64,000 nt of DNA from Eledone cirrhosa (Eukaryota), in contig OZ024743.1 of NCBI GenBank assembly GCA_964016885.1, positions 305,970,001 to 306,034,000 of the forward strand, in the 5' to 3' direction. Shown here piece by piece: positions 3,773-53,285 of this stretch. A program made the position numbers and the translations under genes. Below the pieces are notes generated by a model that did no database searches, was not told the DNA's origin, and saw nothing but the letters and a program-made list of their open reading frames with translations. How positions within the stretch are numbered: position 1 is the stretch's first letter; every line of letters starts with the position of its first letter.

Positions 3773-3843
3773 TATTTTATCTGATGAGAACGCAGATATC
3801 ATCCCATGATGATATTTGTTTTTGAAATGCGTATAATAAAATA
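3773..3843 (+). ncRNA. Type I hammerhead ribozyme in pLTR
   Basis: tattttat CTGATGA [agatatcatc/gatgatattt stem II] GAAA tgcgta TA ataaaata; stem I is complementary. Confidence 0.85.
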
Positions 3844-5325
3844 CTTGGAACTCTTTTAACCATCTTTTGATCTTATATTATATATATATATAATGTATAT
3901 ATACAATTGATATTAAATAAATGGAAACTATATTTATAAAACCATATTTATTCTATTATATATATTTCAAGGGTACCAAAAAGTTTGGTACGCTATCATT
4001 AGATACAATACAAAATGTTTTATAAATATTTGACATGACCAAGGATGATATACCTTAACGGTTCAAGTTATCCATGGAAAGTGAAGGAAAAGAGGAGAAA
4101 AGTCAGATCTTTAAAATTATTAATATGATTATGCAAATGATGTGTATATTAAAGGGCTGAAAAAACGTTATTTTAGACGCTATGGAAAATTTAAATATTT
4201 ATGATAAGGAAAGAAGAGAAAGAGAAAAGAATAACGTTAATTTGGGAGAAAAGATTTCTGTTACTTATATTATGAGTTATAAAATTATAGGAAGAATTAT
4301 GGTTGTAACTATTTTTATGTATATAAATATCTCTGTATATATTAATAAGTTGCGTATGCATTGATTCTTTATATAAACAAATATGAGTTACGAATGATGT
4401 TGAAAATTTTATTTTCAAGTTGTGAGGTTGGAATAATTTGTGGATTCAAAAATTTTCAACATTAAGAATATTTTCAGAATATTGTTAATTTAATGAAGCT
4501 ATATAAATTATCAAACTAAAATTGTTAAAGAAGAAAGAAAAAGGAAAAGGAAGACCACTTGAACGTTAATTTAGGGAAAATATATTCAGACATTTATGTA
4601 TATTTATATGGAGAATTATTTATCTTATTATAATAATATATAAATATCTATATATGTATTTTAATAATAGCATATTTGTTTTTTTTTAAAGGATAGTTTG
4701 TTTATACTATTAGTTACGAGGGATGTTGATTTATAAATAAGTAAAATAAATAGGTGTTTGTTCCTAATATAGGTTACTAGGGATGTTGATTTTATTTAAA
4801 TAAATAGGTAGTTACAATTTATAAGGTTAAATTAAATTAACGGAGTTATGTATAAAACGTTTTTTTATGATTGAAAGAAGGAAAGATAACTCCAATTTTT
4901 TTTTATTATTAATCGCTAGTGTGGGATTAATTATTTATTCTAAAGAAATATGAATAATTAAACACCATCCTGAATAGGATATATTTTACTAAAAACAGTT
5001 AATGGTTATTAATCTATATTTAAAAATTAGCTTTAGAGAGTGTCATTAGAAAAATAAAACATTAAGAAAAAAGAATTAAAGAATTTAGAAGAATTAAAAG
5101 AATTAAAATTAAAATTAAAATTTAAAATTATATAGAAGTACATAATGTAGAAGTACACAAATATATATAAATAAATATCTATACATACACACATATATAT
5201 ATATATTATGAGAAATTTTAAAGATATTATGATTTAGAGATATTAATATATTAAAGTATTAAAAATATAAAATGTTATAGCAGATAAGATCATTTTGGAG
5301 ATTAATAGGAATATTATATGTATAT

Positions 5326-7502
5326 TATAAGTTACATATAGATCTGAATGTAGAATGTTGGCGATGTTTGCAACAACTAAATAATTCTGTTCTAAGATTA
5401 ATAGAGTTTTTACAATTAATTATATAAAAGATTTCTTCAATACATAATTTACAGAATCTTGATAAGGCCGTGTTTCAGTAAGCAGGTGCTTCCGAAATCG
5501 TTTTTTCCAAGATAATAAATAGTCTATATTCCTGCTTTTTAAATTCCATATATGATGTGAGAGGGTAGTAGAATATTTTTTGTTAGATCTTCTAAAGGAA
5601 CAATTGTGGTTATTCCAGCGAAATTTAAATTCTGTAGAAGTGGCACCGACATAGTTGAATATATTATCACTAGTTTTAACTGTACATTTATTAACCACGT
5701 TTTTATCTAAACACTTATTTTGTAAAGGGCAGCTTGTTTTAATTCTACAGTTACATTTTACGGAGTTGTTGTTGATCAGAACGGTACTATTATACTGGAT
5801 ATTGCTAGAAATATTATTATTACTATTATGGTTATTTTGGTTAGGGTTTAAATTTAAGTTTCTATTATTAATCCTATTTATATTTTGTGCTATGTTCATA
5901 GTAGTAGAGTAGAATAATTTTATAGTATGTCTGTTAAAGATTGAGTGGTATCTATGGGTTTTAAGAAAACATTTGTCTAGTGCTTTAAAGAATAGCTTTG
6001 CTAAAGGTGTTTTAACGTTTAATGAGAATGGGGGTGAGTACCAAATAATATTTCTAGTTCTAGTTCTTTTGTTTGTTTTAGAGTTTAAGTTAAATTGTTC
6101 ATTCTTATTATAATTAATAGTAGGGTGATTTGCCTTATTATTGTTGTCAATGTATTTAATTTTATTCGTATAGCCTGCTCTATTTAAAGCTTCATTAAAA
6201 TATTCAGCCTTTTTCTCAAAAATATTTTTATTAGCAGAGATGCGTGAAATTCGTTGCTGGACACTATTGACGATAGTGTTCTTAATAGATCTAGGATGAT
6301 TAGAGTTAAAAGTTACAATATTTAGATTCTCATTGATTTTCTGGAATGGTTAGTAGAGCCCTCTGCTAAAGTTTAATGTTATCTCTAAAAAGTTAACGAT
6401 TTTATAGTTATTCTCTATTTCTAACTTAAGGTTATAATTATTGAAGAATTATATTATGGATTTTCTTTTTCTATTAATTTCACAATTACTATGGTTTTGA
6501 TATAAAGCACCGGTCATCTCTGGCATTATTCTATGCGGTGTATTATTAATAAATAAGCCCACAAGATACGCTATTTGCGCCTAGTCGGATGATCCCATGG
6601 TGATATCAAAATTATTTTTCCTATCGGCTCTTTGTCCAGAGATGATTGTTGATTTCAATTAAAGTTTTTCGTGCAGTTAAAATGATATGCATTTCTTCAC
6701 TAGATAAATATGTATGTTTAGATGCACAGATAAGAGCTTTATTAAGAAAACTAGGAGTAATAGAGGAGTAGTAATTTGCAATATCCATTTGAATGAATTT
6801 TTTCTTATGTTTAAATTGTGTGTTATTGAACCAATCTATAACCTCGTTAATAACGATCCATAGTTTTAGGTGTGATTTTTCTTTAAGTTGTGGTATGATT
6901 CTATCTAATATATGTTCACTAATTATCCCTAAGTCTGATTTAGATGGTGCTATAAGTCTGACTGGTAGTTCTATTTCAAAGTTTCTTTTGTGGCCTTTCA
7001 GGTGGTCTTCTAGGTATAAAGGGTTCAGTCCTATTTTGGATGCCTAATTTAAGAATTATTTCGGAAGCTTCTCTATTTAACGTTGCAAGATCTTCATTAG
7101 TTGTTATTCTGTATTTTTTCTGAGTTCCTTCAACATAAGATTATTGTATTCGTCCCTTTGCATTCCGTATAGATTGTTAGTTTTATCAGATTTAATTAGG
7201 ATCTTCTCAGTTTTTTCAAGATTGTCTATATTATTCTTGAGGCCTTTAAGGTATTCCTGGCCTACAAATTATTTTTTCTTGAATTTGATGTTTTGTATAA
7301 TCGATATTACATCCTTTTCAAATTCCATTAATAGTTTGTTGCTATGTGGATTCTTCTTAGATTTGAAGATCATATCGAAGTTGTAACTGGATTTATTTAT
7401 TTTTTCGGATTTTCTATCAAAATGGAAGGCACGCCATCTAAGTCTTCGTATAAAGGAATCAGATTTTTCAATGAGTTGTTTTAGATACTCATTATTCTTA
7501 GG
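5326..7502 (-). pseudogene. PLE RT + GIY-YIG, decayed
   Basis: KSDSFIRRLRWRAF, LIAPSKSDLG, MGSSD, CNCRIKTSCPLQNKC, YVGATSTEFKFRW; multiple stops and frameshifts. Confidence 0.9.
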
Positions 7503-7526
7503 TAAATATTTATAAAACATTTTGTA

Positions 7527-7583
7527 TTTTATCTCATGATAGCGTACCAAAATTTTTGTATCCTTGAAATATATATAATAGAA
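7527..7583 (+). ncRNA. Degenerate HHR (core CTCATGA); inverted twin at 3951-4008 (-) has CTAATGA
   Basis: ttttat CTCATGA ..gtaccaaa.. GAAA tatata TA atagaa. Same layout as the 3773 HHR, but G5 is lost. Confidence 0.6.
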
Positions 7584-7718
7584 TAAATATGGTTTTATAA
7601 ATATAGTTTCCATTTATTTAATATCAGTTCAATACTTACTCCAGAAAACTGTCGAGTGCTTTGAATCAGTTGTAGATATCTATATTTGTTGGATTTCCAA
7701 CAAATTAAATATCTCTTA

Positions 7719-8217: not shown

Positions 8218-9317
8218 GTAATAATAATAAAATTGAAGACTAAAATCCAAAGAGGGCTCGATAAGGAAAATATATATCAAATATATAAGAACCGTAGAGC
8301 AAATATTTATTAAAATAACAGATTAAAGTTTAAGCAAAGAATCGCTGCTTTCACCCTTAACGGGATCTTCTGAAAATAACAAAGTCAATCTGTAAACGCA
8401 GAACTGGATATTTCAAAAAACGTTGCAACCGGAGGAAGACAGGAAGACGATACTTTGGTTCGTGGTAACGTTCGCTGGCAAAGAACGGGAAAAAACGAAT
8501 AATACGTCATTAATAGGAGCGGTGAAAAACAATTACGCGCAAAGACAAAACCACGTTTATGGTATAAAAGAGGTCGTAGACTAATGTTCTCTTAGGTGGT
8601 GCATAGAGACGTTCTCTGGCAATGAACGAAAAAACGAAGATAATAAGTCATATGTGGAGCGTGGAGAACAATAGCACGCAAAAACAAAACCACGTAAATG
8701 GTATAGCAGAAATCGTAGACTAAAATTCTAACTAGGAGACCAAATGAATCTCCGCTACAGAGTTAAGAACAAAGTAAATAAATACAATACAGAAGTAATA
8801 GAAACAAATAAATACATACATGCAAACAGATACGTACATACACAAGCATACGCAAAACCTTACCATGGGTATACAAAACTACGCACATATAAATATGTGT
8901 GTGTCTGTATGCTTGTGTACAAATAAATAAATAATTATATAAACGTATATAAGTAAATAAATACGTATATAACAAGCGCACACGCATACCTACATATAAA
9001 TACACGAATGTTCGGAGACGTAAGTCAACTAAAACAAGAAGTACACATATACACACACCCACCATACGTACGAACTTGCACACTCACGCGGACGCAAAAC
9101 TCCCGTATACACATAGCCAAACCCTAAATACCAGAATATGTAAAAATTATACGCTATAACAGTCATATATACGTACGAGAAGGTATACATACCTTCACAA
9201 AACATACGGGTAATATATACTTACCTATGCAAATAAGTAAAGGAATAAACAAAACATATACTTAGCTCCCACATCAAGACGTAAAATATCCACGTATAGA
9301 TCGTGCTATCCGTTAGA

Positions 9318-11436
9318 CTATAACGTGGGGCTGTAATACAGGAAAGTTTTGTGCAATTTATGTTTACAAGCCGAAATTGCCTCAGATTTTTTGTTTAAGA
9401 TGTGGTCTGTAGCGTAGAGTATTTCCAGGGGCTCAGCCGCGCAGAGGTCACATGGTCTTTTATTTCCGTTATACGATCTAGCCCTAGCTAGGATCTCCCA
9501 GTGTAACTTATATTGGGTGTGGTTGTCTTTTAGACTTTCAGATATAAGCTGAAAGTGACGTCATATTCCTTCTTAGAGGGTAACGAAAAGAATGGGTATG
9601 CATGTAAATACGCTGCTTGAAACTATTGGCGGTTAACCCTATGTAGGCCCTATGGGACGTGGGTGTTACAACCTTACATTTGTAGACAATGTTACTAGAG
9701 AGGCATTTCCCGGATAGGGGGCACTCAGCCCGATTCCTACAATTACAGTTAGTACCAACTACAGGGTTGCACGTGTTGCTACGGCTAGGTAGTTTAGCTA
9801 AATTTGAAGCTGTGATGTTATGTGCAAGGTTAGGAGTCGTAGAGTAAGAAATTTTAATAGTATTTCTATTAAAAATTTTACTATATTTATGTGTAGGGGG
9901 AAAATGCTTCGTAATAAGGGAAAGAAAGCTCTTAGCTAATGGTCTGGCCACCTCCATATTATATGGTGGGTTAAACCAACAAATGCGACGGGATCTATTT
10001 CTTCTAGGTTTATTTTCGTACTCTGTATATGCTACCTTATCGACAAATCCACTTCGAGCAAGAGCTTCATTGTAATAAGTGGAATGGTCGTTGAAAATGC
10101 GCTCGTTGGTGGAAAGACGGGAAAGCCTCAACGAAACGTTTCTTACCAGGTTCTTGGTTATGCTGGCAGGATGGTTGGAATGCTTACTTATGTAATTAAG
10201 CGTATCATTCGGCTTTCTATACGGGTAATACAACCCATTCAATAAATTGAGGGTAACGTCGAGGTAATTAACGACCGAGAGATTGGCCTCAGCCTGTATA
10301 GAGAGGTTGAAGCCTTTAAAGAAGGCTGTGAGTTCTTTTCTGAACCTGTCGCAAGCACGAGGTCCGCACTTAGTCATGGTCAAAAGACCATCGTCACGGT
10401 ACAAACCACCGCCCGCGTTGGGGAATTCGTCCTTGATAGAGAAAAGAAGGAAAAGGCCAATAAGATCAGTAACCTCCGCAGAGTCACTGGCGCCCATACT
10501 CACGTCGAATGGGGTACTATTGGATTTTTTAATCCAAATAGAGTCGTCGAAATTAATCACCGTCTTTCGGGCATTAAGGATGACATCAACTTCAAAATCC
10601 TTAACCACTGTGAGTGTTTTAGCGAAATTGATAGCTCTAAGCAGAAGTGGTAAAGTGATGGATGAGTAGTAATTGTTGATGTCGAATTGGATAAAACGGC
10701 AATGTTCCTTGTTACATATGCCGTTGGACCAATCAATCACCGCGAAAGAATTGTTTCACAGTGCGAGAGGGGCCAAACTTCTAATTTCAGGTATAATTCT
10801 ATCAAGAATCGTTTTACTAAGTCTACCTAAATCGGACTTCGTAGGGTTAATGAGCCGAATAGAGGGGTTGTTCGGAAAATTGGATTTGTGATCCTTCAGG
10901 GTATAGTGGGGAGAGATAGGGTCCAGAGGTTCGGTCCGGTCCAGGATGTTGAGATCAGATGTGATTTTAAACCCAGCATCGTTGATTTCATTGATGACGC
11001 ACCGATTAGTTTTACGGTAATCCTTAGTTACAGCATTATGTAGTAGTTGATGGTAAGTACTGCGCTCCACTTGATATAGGTTGCCAGTTTTGTCGGAATG
11101 GACGTGCACGGCGTTAGAATCCTTAATAGAACGAATTCTATTCTTCAGGTCTTGCTGGAAGGAATTGCTCCTATTCCGAAATTTGATATTCCGAATGAGT
11201 TCCAAGACATCATTTTCGAAGGGTAGCAATGCTGGTTTACACGGGGGGTTATTATAGGTTTTAAATCCAAATTTATCCTGTTTGTTGTCTGCTTTTCGCG
11301 GATTATCGAAATAAAAGGCACGCCAATGCAACCTTTTAATGAACGCGTCTGTTTTCTGTATCAGGAGTTTTAGGTATGTTTTCCTGCTTGGTACGGGTAT
11401 GTTCTTTGTAGAAATATTCAGATGTTGTTTCTGCAT
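9318..11436 (-). pseudogene. PLE RT + GIY-YIG ORF with two in-frame TGG>TGA stops
   Basis: ORFs 10756-11436 and 9538-10740 share a frame. Motifs: FIQFDINNYYSSI, MGASDSAEVTDLIG, GLYRDDG, CNCRNRAECPLSGKC, YIGLT. The paralog at 15.8-17.6 kb has TGG at both stop positions. Confidence 0.92.
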
Positions 11437-11493
11437 GATGAATATAAGTCAGTAGAGTGCCCAACCGAAGGGGCCAAATAGATTGACTTTGTT

Positions 11494-11544
11494 AGTTTCA
11501 GAAGATCCCGTTAAGGGTGAAAGCAGCGATTCTTTGCTTAAACT
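11494..11544 (+). ncRNA. HHR-like motif with CAGAAGA core; further copies 8327-8377(-), 18672-18722(+), 39472-39522(-), 41067-41117(+), 46852-46902(+)
   Basis: agttt CAGAAGA tccc-gttaa-gggt GAAA gcag..ttgc TT aaact. Stems I-III form. Position 4 is A in all six copies. Confidence 0.7.
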
Positions 11545-15761: not shown

Positions 15762-18745
15762 GACTCATACGGAGTATCAAATTTCGGAATAGGAGCAATT
15801 CCTTCCATCAGGACCTGAAGAATAGAATTCGTTCTATTAAACATTATAATGCTGTGCACGTCCATTCCGACAAAACTGGCAATCTATATCAAGTGGAGCG
15901 CAGTACTTACCATCAACTGCTACATAATGCTGTAACTAAAGATTACCGTAAAACTAATCGGAGCGTCATTAATGAAATCAACGATGCTGGGTTTAAAACC
16001 ACCGCTGATCTCAATGTCCTGGACCGGACTGAACCTCTGGACCCTTTTTCTCCCCACTTTACCCTGAACGATCACAAATCCAATTTTCTGAACAACCCCC
16101 TCTATTCGGCTCATTAACCCTACGAAGTCCGATTTGGGTAGACTTAGTAAAAGGATTATTGATAGAATTATACCTGAAATTAGAAGTGTGGCCCCTCTTG
16201 CACTGTGGAAGAATTCTTTCGGAGTGATTGATTGGTTCAACGGCATATGCAACAAGGAATATTGCCGTTTTATCCAATTCGACATCAATAATTACTACTC
16301 CACCATCACTTTACCACTTCTCCTTAGAGCTATCAATTTCACTAAAACACTCACAATGGTTAAGGATTTCGAAGTTGATGTCATCCTCAATGCCCGTAAG
16401 TCAGATTGATTTCGACGACTCTATTTGGATTTAAAAAATCTAATAGTACCCCATTCGATGTGAGTATGAGCGCCAGCGATCTGCGGAGGTTACTGATCTT
16501 ATCGGCCTTTTCCTTCTTTTCTCTAGCAAGGAAGAATTCCCCAACGTTGGCGGTGGTTTATACCGTGATGATGGTCTTTTGACCATTGACTAAGTGTGGC
16601 CCACGTGCTTGCGACAGGTTCACAAAAGAACTCACAGCCTTCTTTAAAGGCTTCAACCTCTCCATACAGGTTGAGGCCAACCTCTCGGTCGTTAATTATC
16701 TCAAGGTTACCCTCAATTTATCGAATGGCTTGCATTACCCGTATAGAAAGCCGAATGATACGCTTAATTACATAAGTAAGCATTCTAACCATCCTGCCAG
16801 CATAACCAAGAAGCTGGTAAGAAACGTTTCTTTGAGGCTTTCCCGTCTATCTACTAATGAGCATATTTTCAACGACCATTCCACATATTACAATGAAGCT
16901 CTTTCTCGGAGTGGATTTGTCGATAAGGTAGCATATACAGAGTACGACAATAGACCTAGAAGAAATAGATCCCGACGCATTATATGGTATAACCCACCAT
17001 ATAATATGGAGGTGGCCACACCATTAGCTAAGAACTGTCTCTCCCTTATTATGAAGCATTTTCCCCCTACACATAAATATAGTAAAATTTTTAATAGAAA
17101 TGCTATTAATATTTCTTACTCTACGACTCTAAATCTTGCACATAAAATCACAGCTTCAAATTTAGCTAAACTACTGAGCCGTAGGAACACGTGCAACCCT
17201 GTAATTAGTACTAACTGTAATTGTAGGAATCAGGTTGAGTGCCCCCTATCCGGGAATGCCTCTCTAGTAACATTGTCTACAAATGTAAGGTTGAAACACC
17301 CACGTCCCGTATGTCCTACATAGGGTTAACCGCCAATAGATTCAAGCAGCGTCTTTACATGCATACCCATTCTTTTCGTAACCCTTTAAGAAGGAATTTG
17401 ACGTCACTTTCAGCTTATATCTGGAGTCTAAAAGACAACCACACCCAATATAAGTTACACTGGGAGATCCTAGCTAGGGGCTAGATCTTATAACAGAAAT
17501 AAAAGACCATGTGACCTCTGCGCCGCTGAGGCCCTGGAAATACTCTACGCCAAAGACCACATCTTAAACAAAAGATCTGAGGCAATTTCGGCTTGTATAC
17601 ATAAATTGCACAAAACTTTCTTGTATTACAGCCCCACATTATACCCTAACGGATAGTACGAACTATACGTGGATATTTTATGTCTTGATGTGGTAGCTAA
17701 GTATGTTTTATGTTTATACCATTACTCTTTTGTATAGGTAAGTATTTATTACCTGTATGTTTTGTGAAGCTACGTATACTTTCTCGTATGTATATTTGAT
17801 TGTATATGTTATGGCTTATATATTATATATTCTGGTACATATGCTTTTGGTTATGTGTATACGTGAGTTTTGCGTCTGTGTGAGTATGCGGGTTCGTACG
17901 TATGTAGGGTGTGTGTATATGTGTACTTTGTGTTTTTGTTGACGTACGTCTCCGAACATATGTATATTTACATGTTATATACGTATTTATTTATTTATAT
18001 ATGTTTATTTAATTATATGTATACACGCACACACACACACACATATATATATATATTTTTTATATATATTTTTATGTGTATTTGGTGTATACATTCGTAT
18101 GCGTGCGGGTACAGGCGTTGCGTGGGTTCTGTATGTGCGTGGGTTTTTTTTTCTGTGTACGAGCGTGTATTTGTCTACCTATGACGAGTGTCTTCGCGTA
18201 TGATTGTGTATGTCCGTATATGGATGCGTATATGTATTTATTTTATTTCAATTACCTCTGTATTTTATTTACTTTATTTTTAACTCTGAAGCCGAGAATC
18301 ATTCGGTTTCCAAGTTAGAATTTTAGTCTGCGACTTGAGTTATACCATTTACGTGGTTTTGTCTTTGTGTGCAATTGTTCTCCACGCTCCACTTATGATG
18401 TATTATCTTTGTTTTTTCCGTTCATTGCCAGAGAACGTCTCTATGAACCAACTAATAGAATATTAGTCTACGACTTCATTTATACCATAAACGTGGTTTT
18501 GTCTTTGCGTGTAATTGTTTTTTACTGCTCCAAATAATGCTGTATTATATTCGTTTTTTCCCGTTCGTTGCCAGGGAACGTTTCCACGAACCGAAGTATC
18601 GTCTTCCTGCTTTCCTCCAGTTGCAATGTTTTTTGAAATATTTACTTCAGCGTTCACAGATTGACTTTGTTAGTTTCAGAAGATCCCGTTAAGGGTGAAA
18701 GCAGCAGTTCTTTGCTTAAACTTTAATCTGTTATTTTAATAAATA
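15762..18745 (+). mobile_element. Second, 5'-truncated copy of the PLE 3 family
   Basis: ORF fragments 15854-17484 are nearly identical to 9318-11200. The 3' UTR matches 8303-9300 and ends in the CAGAAGA HHR plus (TA)n. Confidence 0.92.
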
Positions 18746-22355: not shown

Positions 22356-22492
22356 AGCAAGCCTACCCGCCGTAAGCAACCAATCACACGCTTTCTCTCT
22401 GGCTGGTACACAGCTACATAGCGATCTTAGCCATTTTTGAATCTAAATTTGGCGCGGTGGGTTTGAGAAATTAAATGTCTGATTCTGAGTTT

Positions 22493-39245: not shown

Positions 39246-39253
39246 TATATATT

Positions 39254-39332
<79 letters not shown>

Positions 39333-39444
39333 CATATATAATGTGTATATATATATATATATATCTAATGTATGTATATATAATATATATATATATATAC
39401 AATATATATATATATATATATAATGTTATTATCTATATATATAA

Positions 39445-40230: not shown

Positions 40231-40306
<76 letters not shown>

Positions 40307-41133
40307 GTTATTATATATATATATATATAACGTGTATATATATATATATATAATGTTATTATATATATATATATATAACGTGTATATATATATATATATA
40401 TAATAACATTATATATATATATGTATATATATATAGAGGGCGGTGAATTGGCAGTATCAGTAGAGGGTTGGACGCCATGCTTTCTAGCATAGTTACGTCC
40501 CTTTACGGTTTGAGTTCAAATCCTGTCGAGGTTAACTTTGCCTTTCATCCTTACGGGGTCGATAAAATAAAGTACCAGTAATGTACTGGGTAATTGCTGG
40601 CCTTGTGCCAAAAGTAGAAACAATTATATATATATATATATACATTATTACTTCTGTATTGTATTTATTTACTTTGTTCTTAACTCTGTAGCGGAGATTC
40701 ATTTGGTCTCCTAGTTAGAATTTTAGTCTACGACTTCTGCTATACCATTTACGTGGTTTTGCTTTGCGTGCTATTGTTCTCCACCCTCCACATTGACGTA
40801 TTATCTTCGTTTTTTCGTTCATTGCCAGAGAACGTCTCTATGCACCACCTAAGAGAACATTAGTCTACGACCTCTTTTATACCATAAACGTGGTTCTGTG
40901 TTTGCGCGTAATTGTTTTACACCGCTCCTATTAATGACGTATTATTCGTTTTTTCCGGTTCTTTGCCAGGGAACGTTACCACGAACCAAAGTATCGTCTT
41001 CCTGTCTTCCTCCGGTTGCAACGTTTTTTGAAATATCCAGTTCTGCGTTTACAGATTGACTTTGTTAGTTTCAGAAGATCCCGTTAAGGGTGAAAGCAGC
41101 GATTCTTTGCTTAAACTTTAATATGTTATTTTA

Positions 41134-41140
<7 letters not shown>
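39445..41140. repeat. Palindrome of about 1.7 kb: pLTR(-) + SINE(-) + (TA)n centre + SINE(+) + pLTR(+)
   Basis: 39445-40153 is the near-exact reverse complement of 40434-41140, including the TA spacer between SINE and pLTR. Confidence 0.92.
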
Positions 41141-41192
<52 letters not shown>

Positions 41193-41197
41193 CACAT

Positions 41198-41242
<45 letters not shown>

Positions 41243-41249
41243 CACACCC

Positions 41250-41290
<41 letters not shown>

Positions 41291-41381
41291 CATATATACA
41301 CATATACATACACATACATATACATACACACACACACATACACAAGCATATACATATATACACATATACACATACATAAAC

Positions 41382-41699: not shown

Positions 41700-42560
41700 T
41701 AGGTTTATAGTATTTAAATGTTTTTCGTATACGGTGATTACAGACTATCATCAAATCCTATCTTTTATTTAATAAATCGTCCTTAGATTTAATAATTTCG
41801 AAGATCTCTCCTGAACATAATCCGCATTCCCTTCTGCTTCCAAGATATGGAGTTTTTTGTAGAATGGTGTTCCACGATAACTTAAAATCTATATTTTTCT
41901 TTTTATAATTATTTACCGTGGTGTTTGCTAGTTTAGTACTGTTGAAACTACTAGAGTGTGCGTAAAATCTTTTCTTAAATGTGTTTGATGTAGAACCTAT
42001 ATATGTTTTGTAGGAGGCTGTAGTAGACACAGTGCATTTATATACTACATTATTAATCAAACAGTTTCCATTTAAGGGGTAAATGCTTCTATTTCTGCAA
42101 TTACAGCCATACGTGAGATGGTTTTGGGGGGTGTCTATACTATTCTCATTTATCCTTGAGCTATTCCTATTGTAATTAATGAGAGAAGGAGAATGATGGT
42201 TGCTTTGTGGGTGGTTTGGTACTAGAGTTGTATTGTAATTTTGTGTTCTGTTGTTTTTGTGTTGGTGATTTGGTTGGTTGTGTTTTCTAGGTTTAAGGAT
42301 TGTATTATTTGTCTTTTTAAAAGATGCAGTCATATTTAAATTATGTTGCGGTGGTGTAGTCATATTATTTTTAAGTTTGTAAGTTGCTTATTTTTTGTTT
42401 GAGATTGTTTGATATAGAGTATGAGAATTTAACAGTATATTTGTTAAATATTTGGAGGTATCTGTGGTTTGGTGAAAATGTTTATGTAGTATTTCAAAGA
42501 ATTTTTGGGGGATTTGTCCAATAGTTTGCAGGTTGAAGGGTGCGTTGTACCATGTTAAGT
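41700..42560 (-). pseudogene. PLE 3' fragment (linker + GIY-YIG)
   Basis: WYNAPF, CNCRNRSIYPLNGNCL, YIGSTSNTFKKRF, CGLC. Confidence 0.85.
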
Positions 42561-43247
42561 TGTATATTATCGCATTACTATATCACGTTAAGTTGTATAT
42601 TATCGCATTACTATATCACATTAACTTATTATAATTTTCATCTTTTAATATACTATCTTTCCTAGCCATAACATTAATTTATATTCACCTTAAAACTCAA
42701 TACAACACTAATCACCATGTATTTTGACATTCCTTTTAAATTCACTATACAAGATACATTCAACTATCAGTTTGACAATCCCCTTCCTTCCTAATATATT
42801 TTTATGTCATGACCTCAACTAAAGTGTATTACTTTTCATCTTAACACCATATGAAAAAGACAATTCGATTCGTTAGTTCTTCAACTACCTCTGAGTAAAA
42901 TTATTATTGAATAAAATTATTATTGCTTTTGAAAACAGCTGGTGATATGCATGTAAGTAAATATTCCCTCTATATGATAGTTTGTAAACTTACATAGATC
43001 AATAACTGAGTATAGATACAATGTATTATCATCATCTAGAAACGATCGTAAAGCAGTGAAGTATATATCTAATGACTTGATTTTTTATTTCATTGTTTTA
43101 ACTAATATCATGACTCTGTTTTCCTTTTAATGTTTTATTGTTTTCTGAGATTTATCTTAACCTACAACATTTTCAACATATGGATTACATTGAGTTCTTC
43201 ATACAGAATAGACCCCACAACTTACAGTGGATACCTCTGTGTATATA

Positions 43248-43885: not shown

Positions 43886-43930
43886 GCTTACAATGTTCCA
43901 TCCATACTGTTGGGTAGATTTCATCAGAGC
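43886..43930 (-). ncRNA. Decayed HHR in pLTR remnant (related decayed copy 46603-46647)
   Basis: gct CTGATGA ... GGAA cattg TA agc + AATAAA; GAAA is mutated. Confidence 0.55.
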
Positions 43931-44199: not shown

Positions 44200-45754
44200 C
44201 AACGCCTTCCAACCAGCGTCTTACTACACATAAACGCGGCAGAATGAAGCCGAGTCCGCCCGAGCATAAAGCGAAAGGGACACATAACTGGCACAATAAC
44301 ATGCATAAGAACGGTCACCTTGAAAGCACAACCCATAGCAAACGTACCAATACACAGAACCGCCACCGTAACGTCCTATGTTTCCATCCTCCCTACTCTC
44401 GGAGTGTTGCCTCCGATATACCCCGCATATTCTTCGAAGCCTTAGAGAAGAACTTCCCACCCAACCATAAATATAGGAAAATCCTGAATAGAAACAATAT
44501 TAAAATATCCTTCTCTACTACTCCTAACCTAGCAGATATCATAGGAACAACTAATCACAGTAAAATCACCAAAACACAGCACCTTAGCACCGATACACCT
44601 AGACCTGACAATAACCATAACGGCCTTAACGTCTCCCTAGCAGCAGCCATAACAGACGCAACCAACGTAACCGCGACATGACTGGGGAATATGCTAGTGA
44701 CCTGTACGGGTCACCTGACGACATCAGAAGGCGTTGCGGCGTGCCGAGTGATAATAGTACTACTCCGCACGCTACGGGATGTAATAGTACTAACGACAGG
44801 GATAGAGGTGTAGGTAACAACATAGATAGCAATAATAATTTCCTCACCTCGTGAACTAGTAGTGACTTCGACCGAAAATGCAACTGCCGTGACAGGCGAC
44901 GCTGCCCCCTTAGGGGAAATTGCCTGACAGATAAGGTTATTTATAGGTGCACCATAACTAGCCATAATAGCGTTATGCATTAGATAGGGGCCACCTCCGT
45001 CCCGTTCAAAAATAGATTTCGAACACATCTCCACTCTTTCACAAACAAAAAACTAAGACACTCCACTTCGCTCGCCAATTACATCACAGCATTAAAAGAC
45101 TCAAACATCAGCTTCTCCACACACTGGGAAATTGTCGGCAGAGCAGCACCGTACAATTTCAAGAGGAAGTGCAAGCTTTACCTCATGGAGCTTTACCATA
45201 TCATAACGGCTTCCCCTGAGCTCATTAACAGCAGAGCGGAATCAGTGATAAACTGCAGGCACCGTATAAAGATGTCGTACTCCAGATGGAATAAGAATGA
45301 GGCATGAAAACCATAAACCGGGTCCCCCTGCACCAAACCTTAACACCCCAGTGGCCAGGCGCTGCAAATAAACATCCGGAAACCAACCATGCATCCCAGA
45401 TATAGCGTGAATCGACAAAGGTAAAGCAGTACCCACAAAGTAATAGCGGGTAACAAATGGCTTGGGGAACACTGCTGTAACACCGGCTAGAGTTATCTCC
45501 CCTAATCTACTACAAAAACAATAAATGTGCTTTACGAAGAATTAACTGTGATGTGAATTTATCTTTAAAACCCCTTCTGGGTCACGTAAGGAAGACTCTT
45601 TAGTGAATTTATCTTCAAAACGGCTTGTTGGTCACGTAAGGAACACTCTTTAGTTGTTATGCCCTTGAGAAGCCCTTTTTGGGCGAAACGTACGTAGGTG
45701 CTGTTTTAAATAAACATGTTTTAACGGTTTGTTCTGCTTTATATATTTTTTCAC

Positions 45755-45829: not shown

Positions 45830-46765
45830 AAACTGGAACGGGAACAAAAACAGAGAGGCAGTATAAACAAAGGTTTATTAGTTTCACGCTCTTGAGAGTG
45901 TGTGTGGTGGGGTGGGTGGCACTCTCAAGAACCAATTTTCAGGAGAAAAGTGGATGGGAAGAGAGTTCCGAGGGTGTGTGAGGGTGTGTGAGGGAGTGGT
46001 GGAGAGACATTTAGAGAAGGGGGGGGTTGTGGAAGGGGTACAAATAAAAAATAAATAAATAAAAATAAAAATAAACATAAAGATAAACAAGTAGTGGAAG
46101 GTTGTGGGGCGTGTAGGTTTGGTGGCATGTGGAGTAGGGAGAGGGAGGCGGGGGGTCCGAGCGGGGAGGACTAAAGGTGGTGTTTGTGTATGTGTGTAGG
46201 TGTACGTGTGTGTGTATGTGTATGTGAATGTGAGAGTTGGGGGACGAACTAGGTTCCATGTTCAGGAAAAGGTGTGTGTGTGGAGTGGCGTGTAGGTCGG
46301 TGTGTGCGTGCGTGTGGATGGGGAGGGGTCAGAGGGGTGGGAGAATCCGGAGGCTGAGTATGTATATGTGGGGGTACGCACGTCTGTGTTTCTGTTTATA
46401 CGTGGTGTGGATGTAGGTGGCGTGGTTCGAAAAAAATGTGAGTGTATGTCCGTGGGTAAGTTCCTAAGGTAGTTCCGAGAAGTGTGCGATGTGGTGCCGG
46501 ATATTTTTCATGTTATGGAGTGGATAGCTGGAACGATATATAAATATATATATATAGAAAAATAAATCAAAGAAAGCCTACATACTTATGCAATTTTTAT
46601 TTGCTAACAATATTTCATCCATACCGTGGGGCAGGAATACTCAGAGTGTAATCAATAACAATATAGCACTGAATATAAGCTCTACCAAGCTTAGTCACAA
46701 GAACAGTAGAGAAACTGTACAGGATAGTATGAGGGAGATTGGATATGAGAAGGATGGAGAGAATG

Positions 46766-46796
<31 letters not shown>

Positions 46797-46913
46797 ATAT
46801 ATATATATATATTGTTATATATATATATATATATATATATAGTAATAATATAGTTTCAGAAGATCCCGTTAAGGGTGAAAGCAGCGATTCTTTGCTTAAA
46901 CTTTAATCTGTTA

Positions 46914-46997
<84 letters not shown>

Positions 46998-47002
<5 letters not shown>

Positions 47003-48784
47003 ATAAATGCTCTGAAATAGCGATATATATGTGAATATAGACATAGAATATTCGAAAATATTCTGTATGTTTATAATAAACATTTTGAAGACCTAATCGC
47101 TATAGAATAGAATACGTCACGTATTACAATTAGATTCTCGATAAAAGCAAGGGAAGTAATCTACGCGTTTCATTCTTGTTAGAAATCATCAGGACCACAT
47201 ATCCAGTGCTTTTATCGAGAATGACACAGCTAGAGACTTATAGAATACTTAGCTGTGTACAGGAACTGGTTTGAAAGAGCGGTTGCCGGTCCGGCAGAAA
47301 TTAGAAATTGGAATAAATGCTCTGAAATAGCGATATATATGTGAATATAGACATAGAATATTCGAAAATATTCTGTATGTTTATAATAAACATTTTGAAG
47401 ACCTAATCGCTATAGAATAGAATACGTCACGTATTACAATTAGATTCTCGATAAAAGCAAGGGAAGTAATCTACGCGTTTCATTCTTGTTAGAAATCATC
47501 AGGACCACATATCCAGTGCTTTTATCGAGAATGACACAGCTAGAGACTTATAGAATACTTAGCTGTGTACAGGAACTGGTTTGAAAGAGCGGTTGCCGGT
47601 CCGGCAGAAATTAGAAATTGGAATAAATGCTCTGAAATAGCGATATATATGTGAATATAGACATAGAATATTCGAAAATAGCACTGGATATGTGGTCCTG
47701 ATGATTTCTAACAAGAATGAAACGCGTAGATTACTTCCCTTGCTTTTATCGAGAATCTAATTGTAATACGTGACGTATTCTATTCTATAGCGATTAGGTC
47801 TTCAAAATGTTTATTATAAACATACAGAATATTTTCGAATATTCTATGTCTATATTCACATATATATCGCTATTTCAGAGCATTTATTCCAATTTCTAAT
47901 TTCTGCCGGACCGGCAACCGCTCTTTCAAACCAGTTCCTGTACACAGCTAAGTATTCTATAAGTCTCTAGCTGTGTCATTCTCGATAAAAGCACTGGATA
48001 TGTGGTCCTGATGATTTCTAACAAGAATGAAACGCGTAGATTACTTCCCTTGCTTTTATCGAGAATCTAATTGTAATACGTGACGTATTCTATTCTATAG
48101 CGATTAGGTCTTCAAAATGTTTATTATAAACATACAGAATATTTTCGAATATTCTATGTCTATATTCACATATATATCGCTATTTCAGAGCATTTATTCC
48201 AATTTCTAATTTCTGCCGGACCGGCAACCGCTCTTTCAAACCAGTTCCTGTACACAGCTAAGTATTCTATAAGTCTCTAGCTGTGTCATTCTCGATAAAA
48301 GCACTGGATATGTGGTCCTGATGATTTCTAACAAGAATGAAACGCGTAGATTACTTCCCTTGCTTTTATCGAGAATCTAATTGTAATACGTGACGTATTC
48401 TATTCTATAGCGATTAGGTCTTCAAAATGTTTATTATAAACATACAGAATATTTTCGAATATTCTATGTCTATATTCACATATATATCGCTATTTCAGAG
48501 CATTTATTCCAATTTCTAATTTCTGCCGGACCGGCAACCGCTCTTTCAAACCAGTTCCTGTACACAGCTAAGTATTCTATAAGTCTCTAGCTGTGTCATT
48601 CTCGATAAAAGCACTGGATATGTGGTCCTGATGATTTCTAACAAGAATGAAACGCGTAGATTACTTCCCTTGCTTTTATCGAGAATCTAATTGTAATACG
48701 TGACGTATTCTATTCTATAGCGATTAGGTCTTCAAAATGTTTATTATAAACATACAGAATATTTTCGAATATTCTATGTCTATA

Positions 48785-48788
<4 letters not shown>
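46998..48788. mobile_element. Candidate non-LTR retrozyme array: 310-bp HHR-containing units, about 2.2 units (-) then about 3.6 units (+)
   Basis: Period 310 (gaataaatgc at 47001, 47311, 47621; gcactggata at 47681, 47991, 48301, 48611). Inversion at 47680/47681, no ORF, (TA)n flanks. Confidence 0.88.
47692..47734 (+). ncRNA. Minimal type I HHR of the 310-bp unit; also 48002-48044, 48312-48354, 48622-48664 (+) and 47156-47198, 47466-47508 (-)
   Basis: gtggtc CTGATGA t-ttct-aaca-agaa-t GAAA cgcg TA gattac; predicted GUA cleavage after 47728. Confidence 0.9.
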
Positions 48789-48826
<38 letters not shown>

Positions 48827-48891: not shown

Positions 48892-48936
48892 GCTTACAAT
48901 GTTTCTTCCTTACGTAACCGTAGGATTCGTCAGAGC
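48892..48936 (-). ncRNA. Intact HHR in solo pLTR (about 48846-49630)
   Basis: gct CTGACGA a-tcctacg-gtta-cgtaagga-a GAAA cattg TA agc, then AATAAA and (TA)n. Confidence 0.8.
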
Positions 48937-49769: not shown

Positions 49770-50152
49770 ATTGGTAAACGGAAAAGAAAATGCTGACAAA
49801 TTGTTCACAGTGAAAAATAGTTTAATTAGGAATAAGTGAAAATTAGTAATAGTATTGGTTAGTATTCAGTTTTGGTTTTAAATTTTACCGGTTGCGCATT
49901 TCTAATGCTTTTTAAAAATAATTTTGAGATAGAGCGCCCGTGATGTTTGCTCTAATCTGATTAGTTTTGGAAATTCTACCTGTTTTATGTGAAAAAAGTG
50001 GCTCCAGATGTATTAAAATAAGTTTCGCGCCAATTCGTGTTGCAAAAATTCTTGTGGTCAAAACAATTTTGATTGGTCGGTAGAGGTCATGTGAATGTTA
50101 AAAATTGATTTTGCGCCAAATGTAGGTTTGTGTCGGCTGATTGATAAGTCAC
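49770..50152 (-). mobile_element. Diverged pLTR related to the 13304 family, with decayed U3:A8 HHR at 49882-49919
   Basis: attt TTAAAAA gcatt-aga-aatgc GCAA ccgg TA aaat; shares aaaaaagtggctc, tttcgcgcc, attgg and gtcatgtga motifs. Confidence 0.55.
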
Positions 50153-50168: not shown

Positions 50169-51065
50169 CTAGCAGTAAAGCCCGGCGTTGCTCGGAGCTA
50201 CTCAGTAGCTGTGTTAAAGTTACAATGTTAAGTTCCTTTCTTGGCTTAAAAATTGTAGAGTCTACAGTATAGACTTTCATCTGGTACTTTCGATTAATAT
50301 TCCCTCAACCAACAGTATGCCTTATGAAGTTAAGAAAACATAACCATAACTCGAATGTTAAAACAAAAGAGGATGCTGGGGATAAAAACTGCATTGGTAA
50401 TCTATTAACAAAAATCGAAATTGTAAACACTGCAACACTTGTCTCAGAGAAAAACATCAGCATAACCAAAGTATCAGTTATTTTGGATGGACATGAAAAA
50501 CAAACAAAAAATGCAATTTTATCGCCTATCACCTCCCTGCACGACTGGCTGTCTGCACAACTTTATCGCCTATATCACCTCTCTGCACGACTGTCTGTCT
50601 GCATGCCTCCATCATCTATCAGCCCGACTGTCTGTCTGCACAACTTTATCGCCTATATCACCTTTCTGGACGACTGTCTGTCTGCACATCTTTATCGCCT
50701 ATAGCAGTAAAGCCCGGCGTTGCTCGGGGCTGCTCAGTAGCTGTGTTAAAGTTACAATGTTAAGTTCCTTTCCCATTTATCTGTAGAACAAACGTAGCCC
50801 ATGTGTCAAGTTTTGTGAAAATCGGTTGCGAACTCCAGAAGTTCTGATGGTTTGTTGCATTGCACTGCAGTGCTTCAGTCGACTCCAAGGAAGTGGTAAA
50901 TGGGGGTTCTCTGCCGGAAGGCCCTATAATCAATATCGGGAAAAATGAAAGTACCCATGACCCTCTGGGGTACATAAGTAACCTAAGTCTTAAGTTTGGT
51001 GAAAATACTGTAGAAATGCATAAGGTTTACACACAACACATTTTCGTTTACAATTTTATTTACAT
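50169..51065 (-). mobile_element. Non-autonomous Helitron-like element with duplicated 3' end
   Basis: Minus strand GC hairpin (ccgagcaacgccggg), then CTAG|T at 50169. A second copy of this terminus lies at 50701-50772, and an internal minisatellite of about 45 bp at 50517-50702. Confidence 0.7.
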
Positions 51066-53285
51066 CATTCTTAAACTCCACCTCCCAACAACACTCAATA
51101 ATGAACATACCCTACTAGTAACCTTTGATGTCATCAATTTATATTCCAATATCCCGCACAACCTAGGTATAGAGGCAATATAATTCTGGCTTGAAAATTT
51201 CCCTAGTAAACTCCCAGGGCGCATCCCCAAAGAATTTGTGTTGGAGGGACTCAAATTCATCTTGGAAAACAATTTCTTCGAATTCAATGCCAAATACTAC
51301 AGACAGAAATCTGGGACTGCCATGGGCACGAAAGTAGCCTCCCCATACGCCAACCTTGTCATAGGATATTTGGAAACCACTCTCTGCCGCAAAGTTCTAG
51401 ACAAATACGGCAACCACTCTACCAACACATAGAAAAGAACTGGAAGAGATATCTGGACGACTCTTTCATCCTCTGGCATGAAAGTATAGATAGACTGGTA
51501 GAGTTTAAAACCCTTCTGAATGGACTCTATACAAACTTACAATTCACAATGGATTACAGCCATAAACAACTCCCTTTCCTCATCAAGAAAACAAACAACA
51601 AAATAGAAACAGACATATACTACAAACCCACAGACTCCAAACAATACTTTCCATTCAACTCGTGCCACCCTAGACACACCAAAATGGCAATTCCTTATAA
51701 CCTAGCCAGAAAGATCTGCGCAATAGTTTCAGATAAATACACATGCTACACACGACTAGAAGAATTAAAAAACACACTTATCAGCAGAAACTACCCACAA
51801 TCCCTATTCAACAATGGATTCCAACGTACACTAACTAAAACTCAACATCCAGGAACTCAGACACCCCAAACTCAGGAATGAACCGCAACAGAAAACTCTA
51901 CCATACATCTCCACACACAACCCCCTCAACAATGAGGCATTCGACACCATCCTCCAGAACATTCCTTTACTAAAAAGAGACCCAAGAATCAACAAAATTC
52001 TCCAAAGACACAACATCATAAAGAGCAAAAGACAACCTAAATCCATAAAAAACATCCTCACACAAGCCAAAATCCAACAAACCCTCACAATGAACCCTAC
52101 AGTAACAAAATGCGGAAGGCCCAACTGTGGTATATGCATAAATCTAATAGAAGGTTCAACATTCCATTTTAAACAAGGACATTTCACAGTTAAACACAAC
52201 TTTACATGTGCATCTGAAAACCTAATCTATGTTTTGACCTGCTCAGGTTGTCAAGAGCACTATATAGGACAGACAAAAAACAGCCTCCGACAACGTATAA
52301 CCGTCCATAAATCACAAATCAAAATACAGGAATACAGAAAGATTGCATTTAGTGAACATATCGCCAATTGTCCACCCAACTAACATCCAAACTTTAAAAT
52401 TTTTCCCATTTACAAATTCATAGAAAACGCTACTTTCATCCATCGTACCAACAAGGAAACACATTTCATTAACAAATTCCAACCTCTACTTATTGCACTA
52501 AACTTCGGACTAAACTAAAACTGGAACAAACAATCAAACATTTACAAATACCTATGTCTCTCTAAAGAGTCACCTCCCTAACACCCTACCTAATACTTTT
52601 TCTTAAATAAATTAAATATCATCCACCATGAATTACCTCCCCCTGCATATTAACTCTTTCAAAGGGGAAATAGTATCAAACCCCAGTCCACCATTTGCCT
52701 CCATCATGGATCAACTAAGCACCCTTGCTATATTAACACATTTTGATCTGCTTAACTTCAAGAACTATGCCTCTAAATAACATTATTTTTCCTTTCACAT
52801 TGACTTTTTATGCTCCACATTATGCCCCTTTTTTTCTTTTTTCTTTTTTCTTTTTTCTTTTTTCTTTTTTCTTTTTTCTTTTTTCTTTTTTCTTTTTTCT
52901 TTTTTCTTTTTTCTTTTCACTTCATAAACCTTGTTTGTAAATAACATTATTCCTTCTGCACCATTTCTTTAACATGTCCAACACCACCATTCTACACCAT
53001 ATACATATCACTATCATTTGATAATGCATAAAAATGTTGAAACCGGTAATAGACAATTATTAAATATATAAATAAATAAATAAATGTCATTGTTAATTAA
53101 TAAATAAATCAACTAATACCTTAACACTTCACACAAAGTAAAATATTTCGTTTTAATCATTTTCCAACCCAGAAAAAAAAGAGAAAGAAATAATAAGGGA
53201 AAAAAAAATATTTTTCTTCCTAATAATCGTCTTTTTCTCCCTGTTTTCATATATATATATTCTAACTCGTGTGCTTCCCCTCCAT
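51066..53285 (+). mobile_element. Neptune-like PLE, 5'-truncated and decayed (coding about 51066-52515)
   Basis: TFDVINLYSNIPH, GTAMGTKVASPYANL, WKRYLDD, YYKPTDS, SCHPRH, CGRPNCGIC, FTCASENLIYVLTCSGCQEHYIGQT. Confidence 0.9.
53011..53052 (+). ncRNA. Probable U3:A8 HHR in the Neptune-like pLTR
   Basis: ctatcat TTGATAA t-gcat-aaaa-atgt-t GAAA ccgg TA atag; stem I is imperfect. Confidence 0.5.

What the first reader, a model, noticed from the sequence alone, without database searches (positions are those of the whole stretch)
3773..53052. Ribozyme-dense locus: more than 25 hammerhead motifs of many architectures in 50 kb
HHR motifs lie at 3773, 3951, 7527, 8327, 11494, 13437, 18672, 19029, 21470, 21786, 22493, two near 23.2-23.4 kb, 23504, 29646, 34426, 36925, 39472, 41067, 43886, 45661, 46603, 46852, six in the array, 48892, 49882 and 53011. 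They occur on both strands, nearly always shortly before the pLTR end and (TA)n. PLE pLTR HHRs are established; the diversity at one locus is notable. Any read-through transcript would be cut up and rich in dsRNA, so the region could act as a piRNA/siRNA source (inference).
Basis: partly seen in the sequence, partly recalled or inferred. Interest (0 to 1): 0.7.

Follow-up and report, generated by a model that had tools for sequence, protein, structure and literature searches.

The report
Retroelement pile-up studded with hammerhead ribozymes
The many small self-cutting RNA motifs here are real, but they are the usual end-pieces of Penelope-like jumping genes that keep landing in the same TA-repeat stretches; what looks new is one family with an altered catalytic core and a conserved RNA hairpin that marks where copying seems to start.

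Summary
All 32 listed hammerhead (HHR) sites were located, plus one missed (42920). A strict type I descriptor gives 13 hits against 0.19 in shuffles. Of 33 motifs, 14 have a canonical core, 4 the published U3-A8 core, 6 a U4A core, and 9 are broken. They form about 15 families from about 23 insertions: ten fragments of nine Hydra-clade Penelope-like element (PLE) families, two Neptune/Nematis-type PLEs, short pLTR stumps and one 310-bp retrozyme array. Hydra PLEs are published as (TA)n-targeting and HHR-bearing. HHR density therefore tracks insertion density; it is not a ribozyme system. 'Cut up' is doubtful: most motifs have palindromic stems III that need a dimer. The piRNA/siRNA idea is untested (no RNA data), though 28% of the region is in inverted repeats. 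Apparently new: a high-copy family with a U4A core and a monomer-length stem III; stems II of 85-103 nt; a retrozyme with PLE insertion geometry (TA flanks, inverted arm, 35-nt tail); and a covarying bulged hairpin after the HHR in 28 of 34 Hydra pLTRs from metagenomes, just upstream of which insertions end.

The parts
303..2682 (-). Hydra-clade PLE A, decayed RT-EN ORF; its 3' pLTR runs off the window start; inverted pLTR copy 2699-3878(+)
   Evidence: tblastn; blastn 1-258 vs 2699-2956; motifs
3773..3843 (+). HHR of A: canonical core, 36-nt stem II, self-complementary stem III
3954..4005 (-). HHR of B, 3' copy, broken (G5A)
5328..7505 (-). Hydra-clade PLE B, frameshifted ORF
7525..7585 (+). 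HHR of B, inverted copy, broken (G5C); followed by a tail with the bulged hairpin at 7638 (A-U version of the first pair)
8327..8377 (-). U4A-core HHR, family C, 3' pLTR of C1 (stem I weakened); tail with a hairpin-like motif starting at 8300
9360..11448 (-). Hydra-clade PLE C1 ORF (one stop, frameshift near the end); compensatory bulged hairpin starting at 11474(-), just upstream of the ORF
11494..11544 (+). U4A-core HHR, inverted 5'-truncated copy of C1
13437..13472 (-). U3-A8 HHR, family N, stem I 3 bp
15764..17575 (+). Hydra-clade PLE C2, 88% aa identical to C1
18672..18722 (+). U4A-core HHR, 3' pLTR of C2
19029..19071 (-). HHR of D: canonical core, stem III unpaired (minimal type)
19272..21146 (-). 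Neptune/Nematis-type PLE D, 624-aa open stretch with RT, CX4CxxC linker and GIY-YIG
21470..21510 (+). HHR of D, inverted copy, truncated at C3 (stem I lost)
21786..21838 (-). Canonical-core HHR on a non-coding stump
22492..22571 (+). Canonical-core HHR with a 49-nt branched stem II, non-coding stump
23147..23442 (.). Palindromic pLTR stump of family N with two damaged U3-A8 HHRs (23223-23258 minus, A9G; 23331-23366 plus, stems mutated)
23504..23620 (-). HHR of E: canonical core, 90-nt rod-like stem II
24037..25709 (-). Hydra-clade PLE E ORF, 5'-truncated
29647..29703 (+). HHR in the 5' pLTR of F, broken (A6G); bulged hairpin at 29742, second copy of the motif near 29869
29907..32019 (+). Hydra-clade PLE F, frameshifted ORF
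34426..34486 (+). HHR in the 3' pLTR of F, canonical core
36925..37036 (-). HHR of G: canonical core, 85-nt stem II
37520..39239 (-). Hydra-clade PLE G, sister of E (65% aa)
39244..41326 (.). 2-kb inverted repeat of family C pLTR with U4A HHRs at 39472-39522(-) and 41067-41117(+)
41704..42558 (-). Hydra-clade PLE H, EN fragment; no HHR found at its 3' end
42920..43059 (+).
43886..43930 (-). Family M HHR, broken (A13G)
44289..45289 (+). Hydra-clade PLE I fragment
45661..45700 (+). U3-A8 HHR of I, weak stem I
46603..46647 (-). Family M HHR, core damaged
46852..46902 (+). U4A-core HHR on a roughly 70-bp stump between TA runs
46997..48797 (.). 310-bp retrozyme array: inverted arm 46997-47680 (HHRs 47156, 47466 minus) and direct arm 47672-48797 (HHRs 47692, 48002, 48312, 48622 plus); TA on both flanks; the arms end 35 nt apart in the unit
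48892..48936 (-). Family M HHR, canonical core, stem I 3 bp
49882..49919 (-). Family N-like HHR, broken (G5A, A13C)
51210..52383 (+). Neptune/Nematis-type PLE J fragment (GIY-YIG above the Pfam cut-off)
53011..53052 (+). U3-A8 HHR downstream of J, weak stem I
53777..54508 (+). Hydra-clade PLE K, EN fragment; 3' end lost, no HHR found

Best explanation
The locus is an accumulation of independent Penelope-like element insertions, mostly a host-lineage radiation of the (TA)n-targeting Hydra clade. Each PLE carries a type I hammerhead near the 3' end of its pLTR (shown here and published). Reverse transcription appears to start about 25-60 nt past the ribozyme's cut site, just 5' of a conserved bulged hairpin (position shown; mechanism inferred), so even very short, 5'-truncated copies keep the hammerhead. 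PLE insertion often adds an inverted partial copy, giving a second hammerhead on the other strand (shown for A, B, C1, D, N and the array). Each insertion leaves TA runs at its edges, which are targets for the next one (inferred). Ribozyme density is therefore insertion density times one to two. The variety of architectures reflects fast pLTR divergence among nine Hydra families (32-65% aa identity) and other PLEs. Most motifs are dimer-type or decayed and probably cut rarely; the tandem retrozyme array is the one part built to cut efficiently.
For: Ten Hydra-type ORF fragments and two Neptune/Nematis-type ones. DKT in 5 of 10 fragments (all that reach that far), CxCX5C in 9 of 10, RW[KR] in 3 of 10; these features are listed in PMC8557442 section 11, which also reports TA insertion and canonical HHRs. 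All 10 fragments fall in one 12-leaf clade (support 0.995) among 91 database relatives. A sense-strand HHR follows the ORF in 7 of the 10 Hydra fragments (B, C1, C2, E, F, G, I; A's lies in the inverted copy; none for H, K) and in D and J. In unrelated metagenome contigs, 46 of 78 Hydra loci carry a sense-strand type I HHR, many of the remaining 32 being cut short. 18 of 27 motifs lie <=90 nt before (TA)5 against 11% at random. Family C is repeated far beyond this locus: 35,446 of 12,467,656 reads of one DNA run and 21,734 contigs of another lie on a 2.3-kb stretch, with summed depth highest in the HHR bin in 2 of 4 runs. Insertion ends fall 2-11 nt before the hairpin in B, C, F and L038.
Against: No genome is held, so I cannot say whether this density is typical or extreme for this host, nor exclude selection for the cluster. 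Several HHR-bearing stumps (21786, 22492, 42920, family M) have no ORF in the window, so their PLE origin is inferred from position only. H and K lack a detectable HHR. L044's 3' copy ends after hairpin 1, not before it. Clade names rest on motifs, not on a tree with named reference elements. Depth is not a copy number, and in 2 of 4 runs the HHR bin was not the highest.
Confidence: 0.85

Rival explanations
1. The region is a dual-strand piRNA/siRNA source, a TE trap in which ribozyme cuts and inverted repeats feed small-RNA production. This could hold on top of the pile-up explanation.
For: Motifs on both strands (18+/15-) and 27.7% of 3.7-53.5 kb in inverted matches, including a 2-kb hairpin at 93% and a 1.5-kb one at 95%. 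Many different families in one place is what a trap would hold (general knowledge of piRNA clusters, recalled).
Against: TA targeting explains the clustering without any host role. Most motifs are dimer-type or broken. A search for Penelope + piRNA cluster + hammerhead + small RNA found 0 papers, so no precedent links the ribozymes to piRNA entry.
Confidence: 0.15
2. The hammerheads are partly independent parasites of PLE ends that recombine among elements or decay freely, so in many families they are no longer catalytic and act only as structural signals.
For: Both copies of B are hit at G5 by different bases. Family C thrives with U4A in 6 of 6 copies. HHR catalytic mutants did not impair insertion in vitro (PMC11167929). 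PMC8557442 (Discussion passage) raises the idea that HHRs parasitise PLEs.
Against: All 46 metagenome loci scored, and all 26 published Hydra rows, have intact cores (my descriptor demanded this, so one search is biased). U3-A8 compensatory cores recur in families N, I, J and at 42920, which points to selection on the fold.
Confidence: 0.2
3. The motifs are chance matches in AT-rich DNA, or copies made by assembly error.
For: Relaxed descriptors reach 15 hits in shuffles. Rfam reports none. The array copies are 99-100% identical. Most motifs do not fold better than shuffles.
Against: 13 strict hits against a maximum of 2 in 102 shuffles. Orientation is tied to ORFs and TA runs. The same architecture occurs in unrelated Hydra loci, one of which hits Rfam Hammerhead_1 at E=0.0037.
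Confidence: 0.02

Closest known systems
Hydra-clade Penelope-like elements (Craig et al. 2021, PMC8557442: section 11, other passages and supplement files S1/S2 seen)
   Same: C-terminal GIY-YIG, RWK/DKT/CxCX5C motifs, no CCHH, (TA)n targets, type I HHR near the 3' end with palindromic stem III, inverted 5'-truncated copies, optional tail. One cephalopod family (Hydra-1_Obim) is already listed.
   Different: All 26 published Hydra HHR rows have a CUGANGA core and short stems II. Here there are U4A and U3-A8 cores, stems II of 85-103 nt, and nine families in 55 kb. The bulged tail hairpin is not mentioned in the passages I saw.
[quoted passage not shown]
   Same: Type I, short stem I, extra nucleotide after A9, palindromic stem III, U3-A8 variant, high within-genome heterogeneity, thousands per genome, pairs on opposite strands 100-700 bp apart.
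   Different: Most motifs here keep a short helix III; family C has a 5-bp monomer-type helix III with U4A; local density is about 33 in 50 kb.
Non-LTR retrozymes of animals (PMC7229834, passages and section 14; bioRxiv 10.64898/2026.07.22.740005, part 1 and passages)
   Same: 310-bp non-coding, low-GC tandem unit with a canonical type I HHR (6-bp stem I, bulge, palindromic stem III) in each repeat.
   Different: This array shows PLE insertion geometry in one place: TA on both sides, an inverted arm and a 35-nt tail offset. The preprint argues for PLE origin from distribution and pLTR phylogeny, and the word 'tail' does not occur in it. No similarity of the unit to any pLTR in the window.
Internal RT initiation of Anolis Poseidon PAc (Frangieh et al. 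2024, PMC11167929: parts 1-2 of 4 read)
   Same: Two RT start sites downstream of the HHR, at a stem-loop, bounding the tail.
   Different: Different clade. In Hydra elements the candidate signal is a sequence-conserved bulged hairpin, often present twice about 60 nt apart, and ends lie just 5' of it.

Membership tests
Type I hammerhead ribozyme | Core CUGANGA / GAAA / UH around three stems | tested here: met
   14 of 33 canonical and 4 of 33 with the published U3-A8 pair; not met by 6 U4A and 9 broken motifs
Type I hammerhead ribozyme | Match to an Rfam hammerhead model | tested here: not met
   0 hammerhead hits among 129 matches at E<=10. Only 1 of 5 metagenome loci with clear motifs hit, below the gathering score, so Rfam is insensitive to this type
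Type I hammerhead ribozyme | Site-specific self-cleavage | not testable with these tools
   needs a bench assay
Hydra-clade PLE | RWK and DKT motifs in the RT N-terminus | tested here: met
   RW[KR] in 3 and DKT in 5 of 10 fragments; the other 5 lack that region
Hydra-clade PLE | CxCX5C linker, no CCHH in the EN | tested here: met
   CxCX5C in 9 of 10; no cysteine pair between the GIY and YIG positions by inspection
Hydra-clade PLE | (TA)n insertion and HHR near the 3' end | tested here: met
   sense-strand HHR after the ORF in 7 of 10 fragments, none found for H and K, off-window for A
Hydra-clade PLE | Groups with named Hydra references in an RT tree | not tested
   the tree held only unnamed relatives
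Neptune/Nematis PLE (elements D, J) | CX2-5CxxC linker before the GIY-YIG | tested here: met
   seen in translations; the two clades were not told apart
Non-LTR retrozyme (310-bp array) | Tandem unit of 150-450 bp, GC <50%, type I HHR in each unit, non-coding | tested here: met
   310 bp, 34.5% GC, 6 HHRs, longest stop-free run 59 codons in a doubled unit
Non-LTR retrozyme (310-bp array) | Expressed as monomeric linear and circular RNA | not testable with these tools
   no RNA run available
piRNA cluster / endo-siRNA locus | Dense uniquely mapping piRNAs or siRNAs | not testable with these tools
   no small-RNA data
piRNA cluster / endo-siRNA locus | Strand bias of TE insertions (uni-strand type) | tested here: not met
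   18 plus, 15 minus; compatible only with a dual-strand type

The most novel reading that the evidence does not exclude
Hydra-clade PLEs end in a two-part RNA module: a hammerhead followed by one or two copies of a conserved bulged hairpin (GCUC / variable upper stem / 2-nt U-led bulge / GAGC-ACU) that docks the RT and sets its start site just upstream, at AT-rich bases that pair with nicked (TA)n. Since this hairpin, not cleavage, drives copying, the hammerhead is free to drift. In this host it has produced a very successful family with a natural U4A core rescued by a long helix III, plus giant stems II. The same machinery also moves a 310-nt retrozyme.
Probability: 0.4. Interest if true: 0.62.

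Novelty: new variant of a known kind. Interest (0 to 1): 0.4.

Why it matters
The headline, many hammerheads in one place, follows from known PLE biology and would not surprise a specialist. Three by-products make open questions testable. (1) What PLE hammerheads do is unresolved; a high-copy family carrying U4A is a natural test of whether cleavage is needed. (2) How PLE reverse transcriptase picks its internal start and makes the tail is known only from one in vitro system; the covarying hairpin gives a clade-wide candidate signal with a simple mutational test. (3) That animal retrozymes are moved by PLE enzymes is a hypothesis; the array here carries PLE-type insertion marks.

Tried and rejected
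Rfam scan of the window: only microsatellite-driven miRNA matches, no hammerhead. Whole genome: none held, so no genome-wide density. Sequencing runs: no RNA holder listed among 22 runs; this is not evidence on expression. Viral contigs: no Hydra relative among 40 pattern matches and 0 matches to a U4A motif pattern. Fixation of U4A across the genome: position 18678 is not among the 40 variant rows shown, but 312 rows were hidden and a known difference near 18708 was also not shown, so this is inconclusive; the only outside support is one loose contig end in a run with another species label that keeps CAGAAGA beside a different loop II. A 3' half-motif at 34827(-) had no core within 300 nt and was left out. 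Other CUGANGA words (for example 36143, 36266, 44715) had no matching 3' half and were left out. Hydra tail motif in the retrozyme: a faint likeness 9 nt past the direct arm's end, but the weight-matrix score is not significant (508 of 2000 shuffled units reach it); not claimed. Thermodynamic folding was weak support: 2 of 13 motifs had at most 10 of 200 shuffles folding as well. Types II and III were not scanned. Literature: no natural U4A hammerhead turned up in searches or in PMC3088659 section 8 (U4C in a viroid is mentioned in its Discussion); figure-only or supplementary tables of PMC3088659, PMC4209133 and PMC7229834 were not seen and may list one. No paper on the tail hairpin in one search. 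The library lacks most subscription papers. The octopus repeat paper (PMC13282606, passages) was looked at only as a lead, since the host is not established.
Full report
Setting. The window is 33.5% GC eukaryote-type DNA with no N, full of (TA)n and related microsatellites, and ends in a 60-bp satellite at 57,836-64,000. No genome is held and run organisms are coded, so the host is not established.

Observation. Rfam found no hammerhead family among 129 matches at E<=10, so I wrote a type I descriptor. With an intact core (U3-A8 allowed), stem I >=4 bp and a folding stem II it gives 13 hits, 8 of them distinct, against a mean of 0.19 and a maximum of 2 in 102 local dinucleotide shuffles. With stem I >=3 bp it is 15 against 0.59; with one deviation 19 against 5.2, maximum 15. 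Shuffles do not model copying, but 8 distinct hits still exceed the maximum. Of the 33: 14 have a canonical core (3773, 19029, 21786, 22492, 23504, 34426, 36925, 48892 and six array copies); 4 have U3-A8 (13437, 42920, 45661, 53011; the last two with only 2 bp of uninterrupted stem I); 6 have U4A; 9 are broken. 18 are on plus and 15 on minus. 18 of 27 non-array motifs lie within 90 nt upstream of (TA)5, against 11% of random positions and 1 of 27 in the other direction.

What carries them. Pfam and self-tblastn show decayed RT and GIY-YIG ORFs throughout. Ten fragments of nine families (C twice) carry the motifs that PMC8557442 section 11 gives for the Hydra clade: DKT in the 5 that reach it, RW[KR] in 3, CxCX5C in 9 of 10, and no CCHH. 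Families are 32-65% identical, and all ten fall in one clade (0.995) with two of 91 unnamed database relatives, which suggests a radiation within the host lineage. Two elements (19272-21146, 51210-52383) have a CX4CxxC linker of Neptune/Nematis type. A sense-strand HHR follows the ORF in B, C1, C2, D, E, F, G, I and J; inverted partial copies supply second motifs for A, B, C1 and D. The rest sit on non-coding stumps between TA runs. By my reading this is about 15 families and about 23 insertions. The same paper reports that almost all Hydra families insert into (TA)n and that canonical HHRs are readily found; its supplement lists 26 Hydra HHR rows, all with CUGANGA cores and short stems II, and includes an octopus family.

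Baseline from elsewhere. A profile of 22 Hydra-type proteins fetched 78 metagenome loci, the best of 520 confirmed stretches. Many of the other 32 are cut short or narrowly missed; among them L051 has a U4A-plus-A6U core and L078 a U4C core by eye. One HHR per element end is thus the clade's rule. Genome totals in print are in the thousands: about 9,000 in Xenopus (PMC4209133) and over 6,000 in 16 families in Acropora (PMC7229834, passage). Laying four DNA runs on 16,400-18,738 shows that family C is highly repeated: 35,446 of 12,467,656 reads in X20 and 21,734 contigs in X1. Summed depth is highest in the HHR bin in X1 (1.98 million against 34,000-504,000 over ORF and 3' UTR bins) and X4, but not in X6 or X20. 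The tool warns that this is no copy number; I use it only as showing dispersal, and as compatible with 5' truncation.

Why every stump keeps its ribozyme. Looking past the cut site in the metagenome loci, I found a conserved element: GCUC, a variable upper stem-loop, a 2-nt bulge starting with U, then GAGC-ACU. It starts 22-61 nt after the cut site in 28 of 34 distinct HHRs with enough room (1 of 34 on the reverse strand) and occurs twice in 15. Over all loci it is on the sense strand in 44 of 78 and antisense in 4. In 64 unambiguous cases the first upper pair is Watson-Crick in 62 (43 C-G, 19 U-A; shuffle mean 36.5, maximum 48 of 5000), the second in 44 (17.5; 30) and the third in 38 (16.1; 28). 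These shuffles ignore relatedness. In the window the lower stem also covaries: an A-U first pair in B (7638) and a C-G third pair in C (11474). Where two copies can be compared, the shorter ends in TA 2-11 nt before the hairpin in B, C, F and L038; L015 stops at the contig end just before hairpin 2; L044 ends after hairpin 1, which does not fit; L032 is cut by the contig end and L059 reads on. TA runs in the loci begin at 32-52 (4 cases) or 103-114 nt (5 cases) after the cut site, with one at 73, matching the two hairpin positions. PMC11167929 showed that a Poseidon PLE starts reverse transcription internally at two sites at a stem-loop that bound the tail. I infer that this hairpin is the Hydra equivalent; that is untested. 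Rfam has no match to it in five loci, and one search showed no paper on it.

The U4A family. All six copies share CAGAAGA, a 3-bp stem II, a 5-bp stem III with a 7-nt loop, and an outer stem below a U-rich bulge. The hammerhead fold lies 1.3-3.7 kcal/mol above the minimum in four of five copies tested. One contig end from a run with another species label keeps CAGAAGA beside a different loop II. PMC3088659 notes that U4 contacts the A6-N7 phosphate and that a natural U4C is impaired in vitro yet tolerated in a viroid. Whether U4A cuts is unknown; fixation genome-wide was not shown.

The array. A 310-bp, 34.5% GC, non-coding unit lies as 3.6 direct and 2.2 inverted copies, 99-100% identical, with TA on both flanks. 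Its HHR has a 6-bp stem I continued past a bulge and a palindromic stem III, which suits dimer cleavage in tandem. It meets the sequence criteria for a non-LTR retrozyme (PMC7229834). The two arms end 35 nt apart in the unit, matching the 30-40-bp tail and inverted copy that PMC8557442 describes for PLE insertions. This supports, from one locus, mobilisation by a PLE enzyme; it could also be an expanded pLTR of a PLE not present in the window.

Inverted matches cover 27.7% of 3.7-53.5 kb, so read-through could give dsRNA. But 11 of 17 motifs checked have only 1-2 monomer pairs in stem III, published single PLE motifs did not cut without a partner or protein, and 9 are broken. No RNA data were available. 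I give the small-RNA role about 15%.

Verdict. The variants and the tail hairpin lift it from ordinary to moderately interesting. Earlier scan notes on other genomes reached the same view of PLE hammerheads; they are unchecked notes and were not used as support.

Noticed in passing
L001-L078 pLTRs; window 7638(+), 8300(-), 11474(-), 29742(+): Conserved covarying bulged hairpin (GCUC...U(U/C/A)GAGCACU) after the HHR and again just before the start codon of Hydra-clade PLEs; insertion ends cluster just 5' of it. Candidate RT docking or initiation signal.
   Followed up: yes
window 46997-48797: Retrozyme array with PLE-type geometry: TA flanks, inverted arm joined within a palindromic stretch, 35-nt tail offset.
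   Followed up: yes
window 3954-4005(-) and 7525-7585(+): Both HHR copies of element B are altered at the same catalytic base G5, to different letters.
   Followed up: partly
window 25862-28700(+): A decayed AP-endonuclease/RT LINE (RTE-like by recall) with a C-terminal C2H2 motif; 25708-25906 just upstream is 97.5% identical to 32172-32371 in the 3' UTR of element F.
   Followed up: no
window 14687-14900, 39953-40150, 40435-40636, 43330-43470: A short interspersed repeat between TA runs; it resembles octopus SINEs by my recall only, not tested.
   Followed up: no
window 11722-12188 and 22122-22356: Palindromic non-coding units without a detected HHR at their centre (MITE-like or inverted stumps).
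   Followed up: no
window 57836-64000: 60-bp satellite, 103 copies, running off the window end; the PLE pile-up abuts it, as in heterochromatin.
   Followed up: no
window 55900-57574(-): Remnant with a weak DUF7083 match; looks like an LTR-retrotransposon gag/pol fragment (recall).
   Followed up: no
window 8468-8723, 18316-18592, 39613-39866; 13584-13928; 36330-36540: pLTRs of several families contain internal two-copy repeats of 110-170 bp.
   Followed up: no
L051 about 2165; L078 about 1360: Other non-canonical position-4 cores in Hydra loci from metagenomes (U4A with A6U; U4C), single copies, possibly decay.
   Followed up: partly
window 34827(-): 3' half of a hammerhead (palindromic stem III like element E's) 75 nt before TA, with no recognisable core upstream.
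   Followed up: partly
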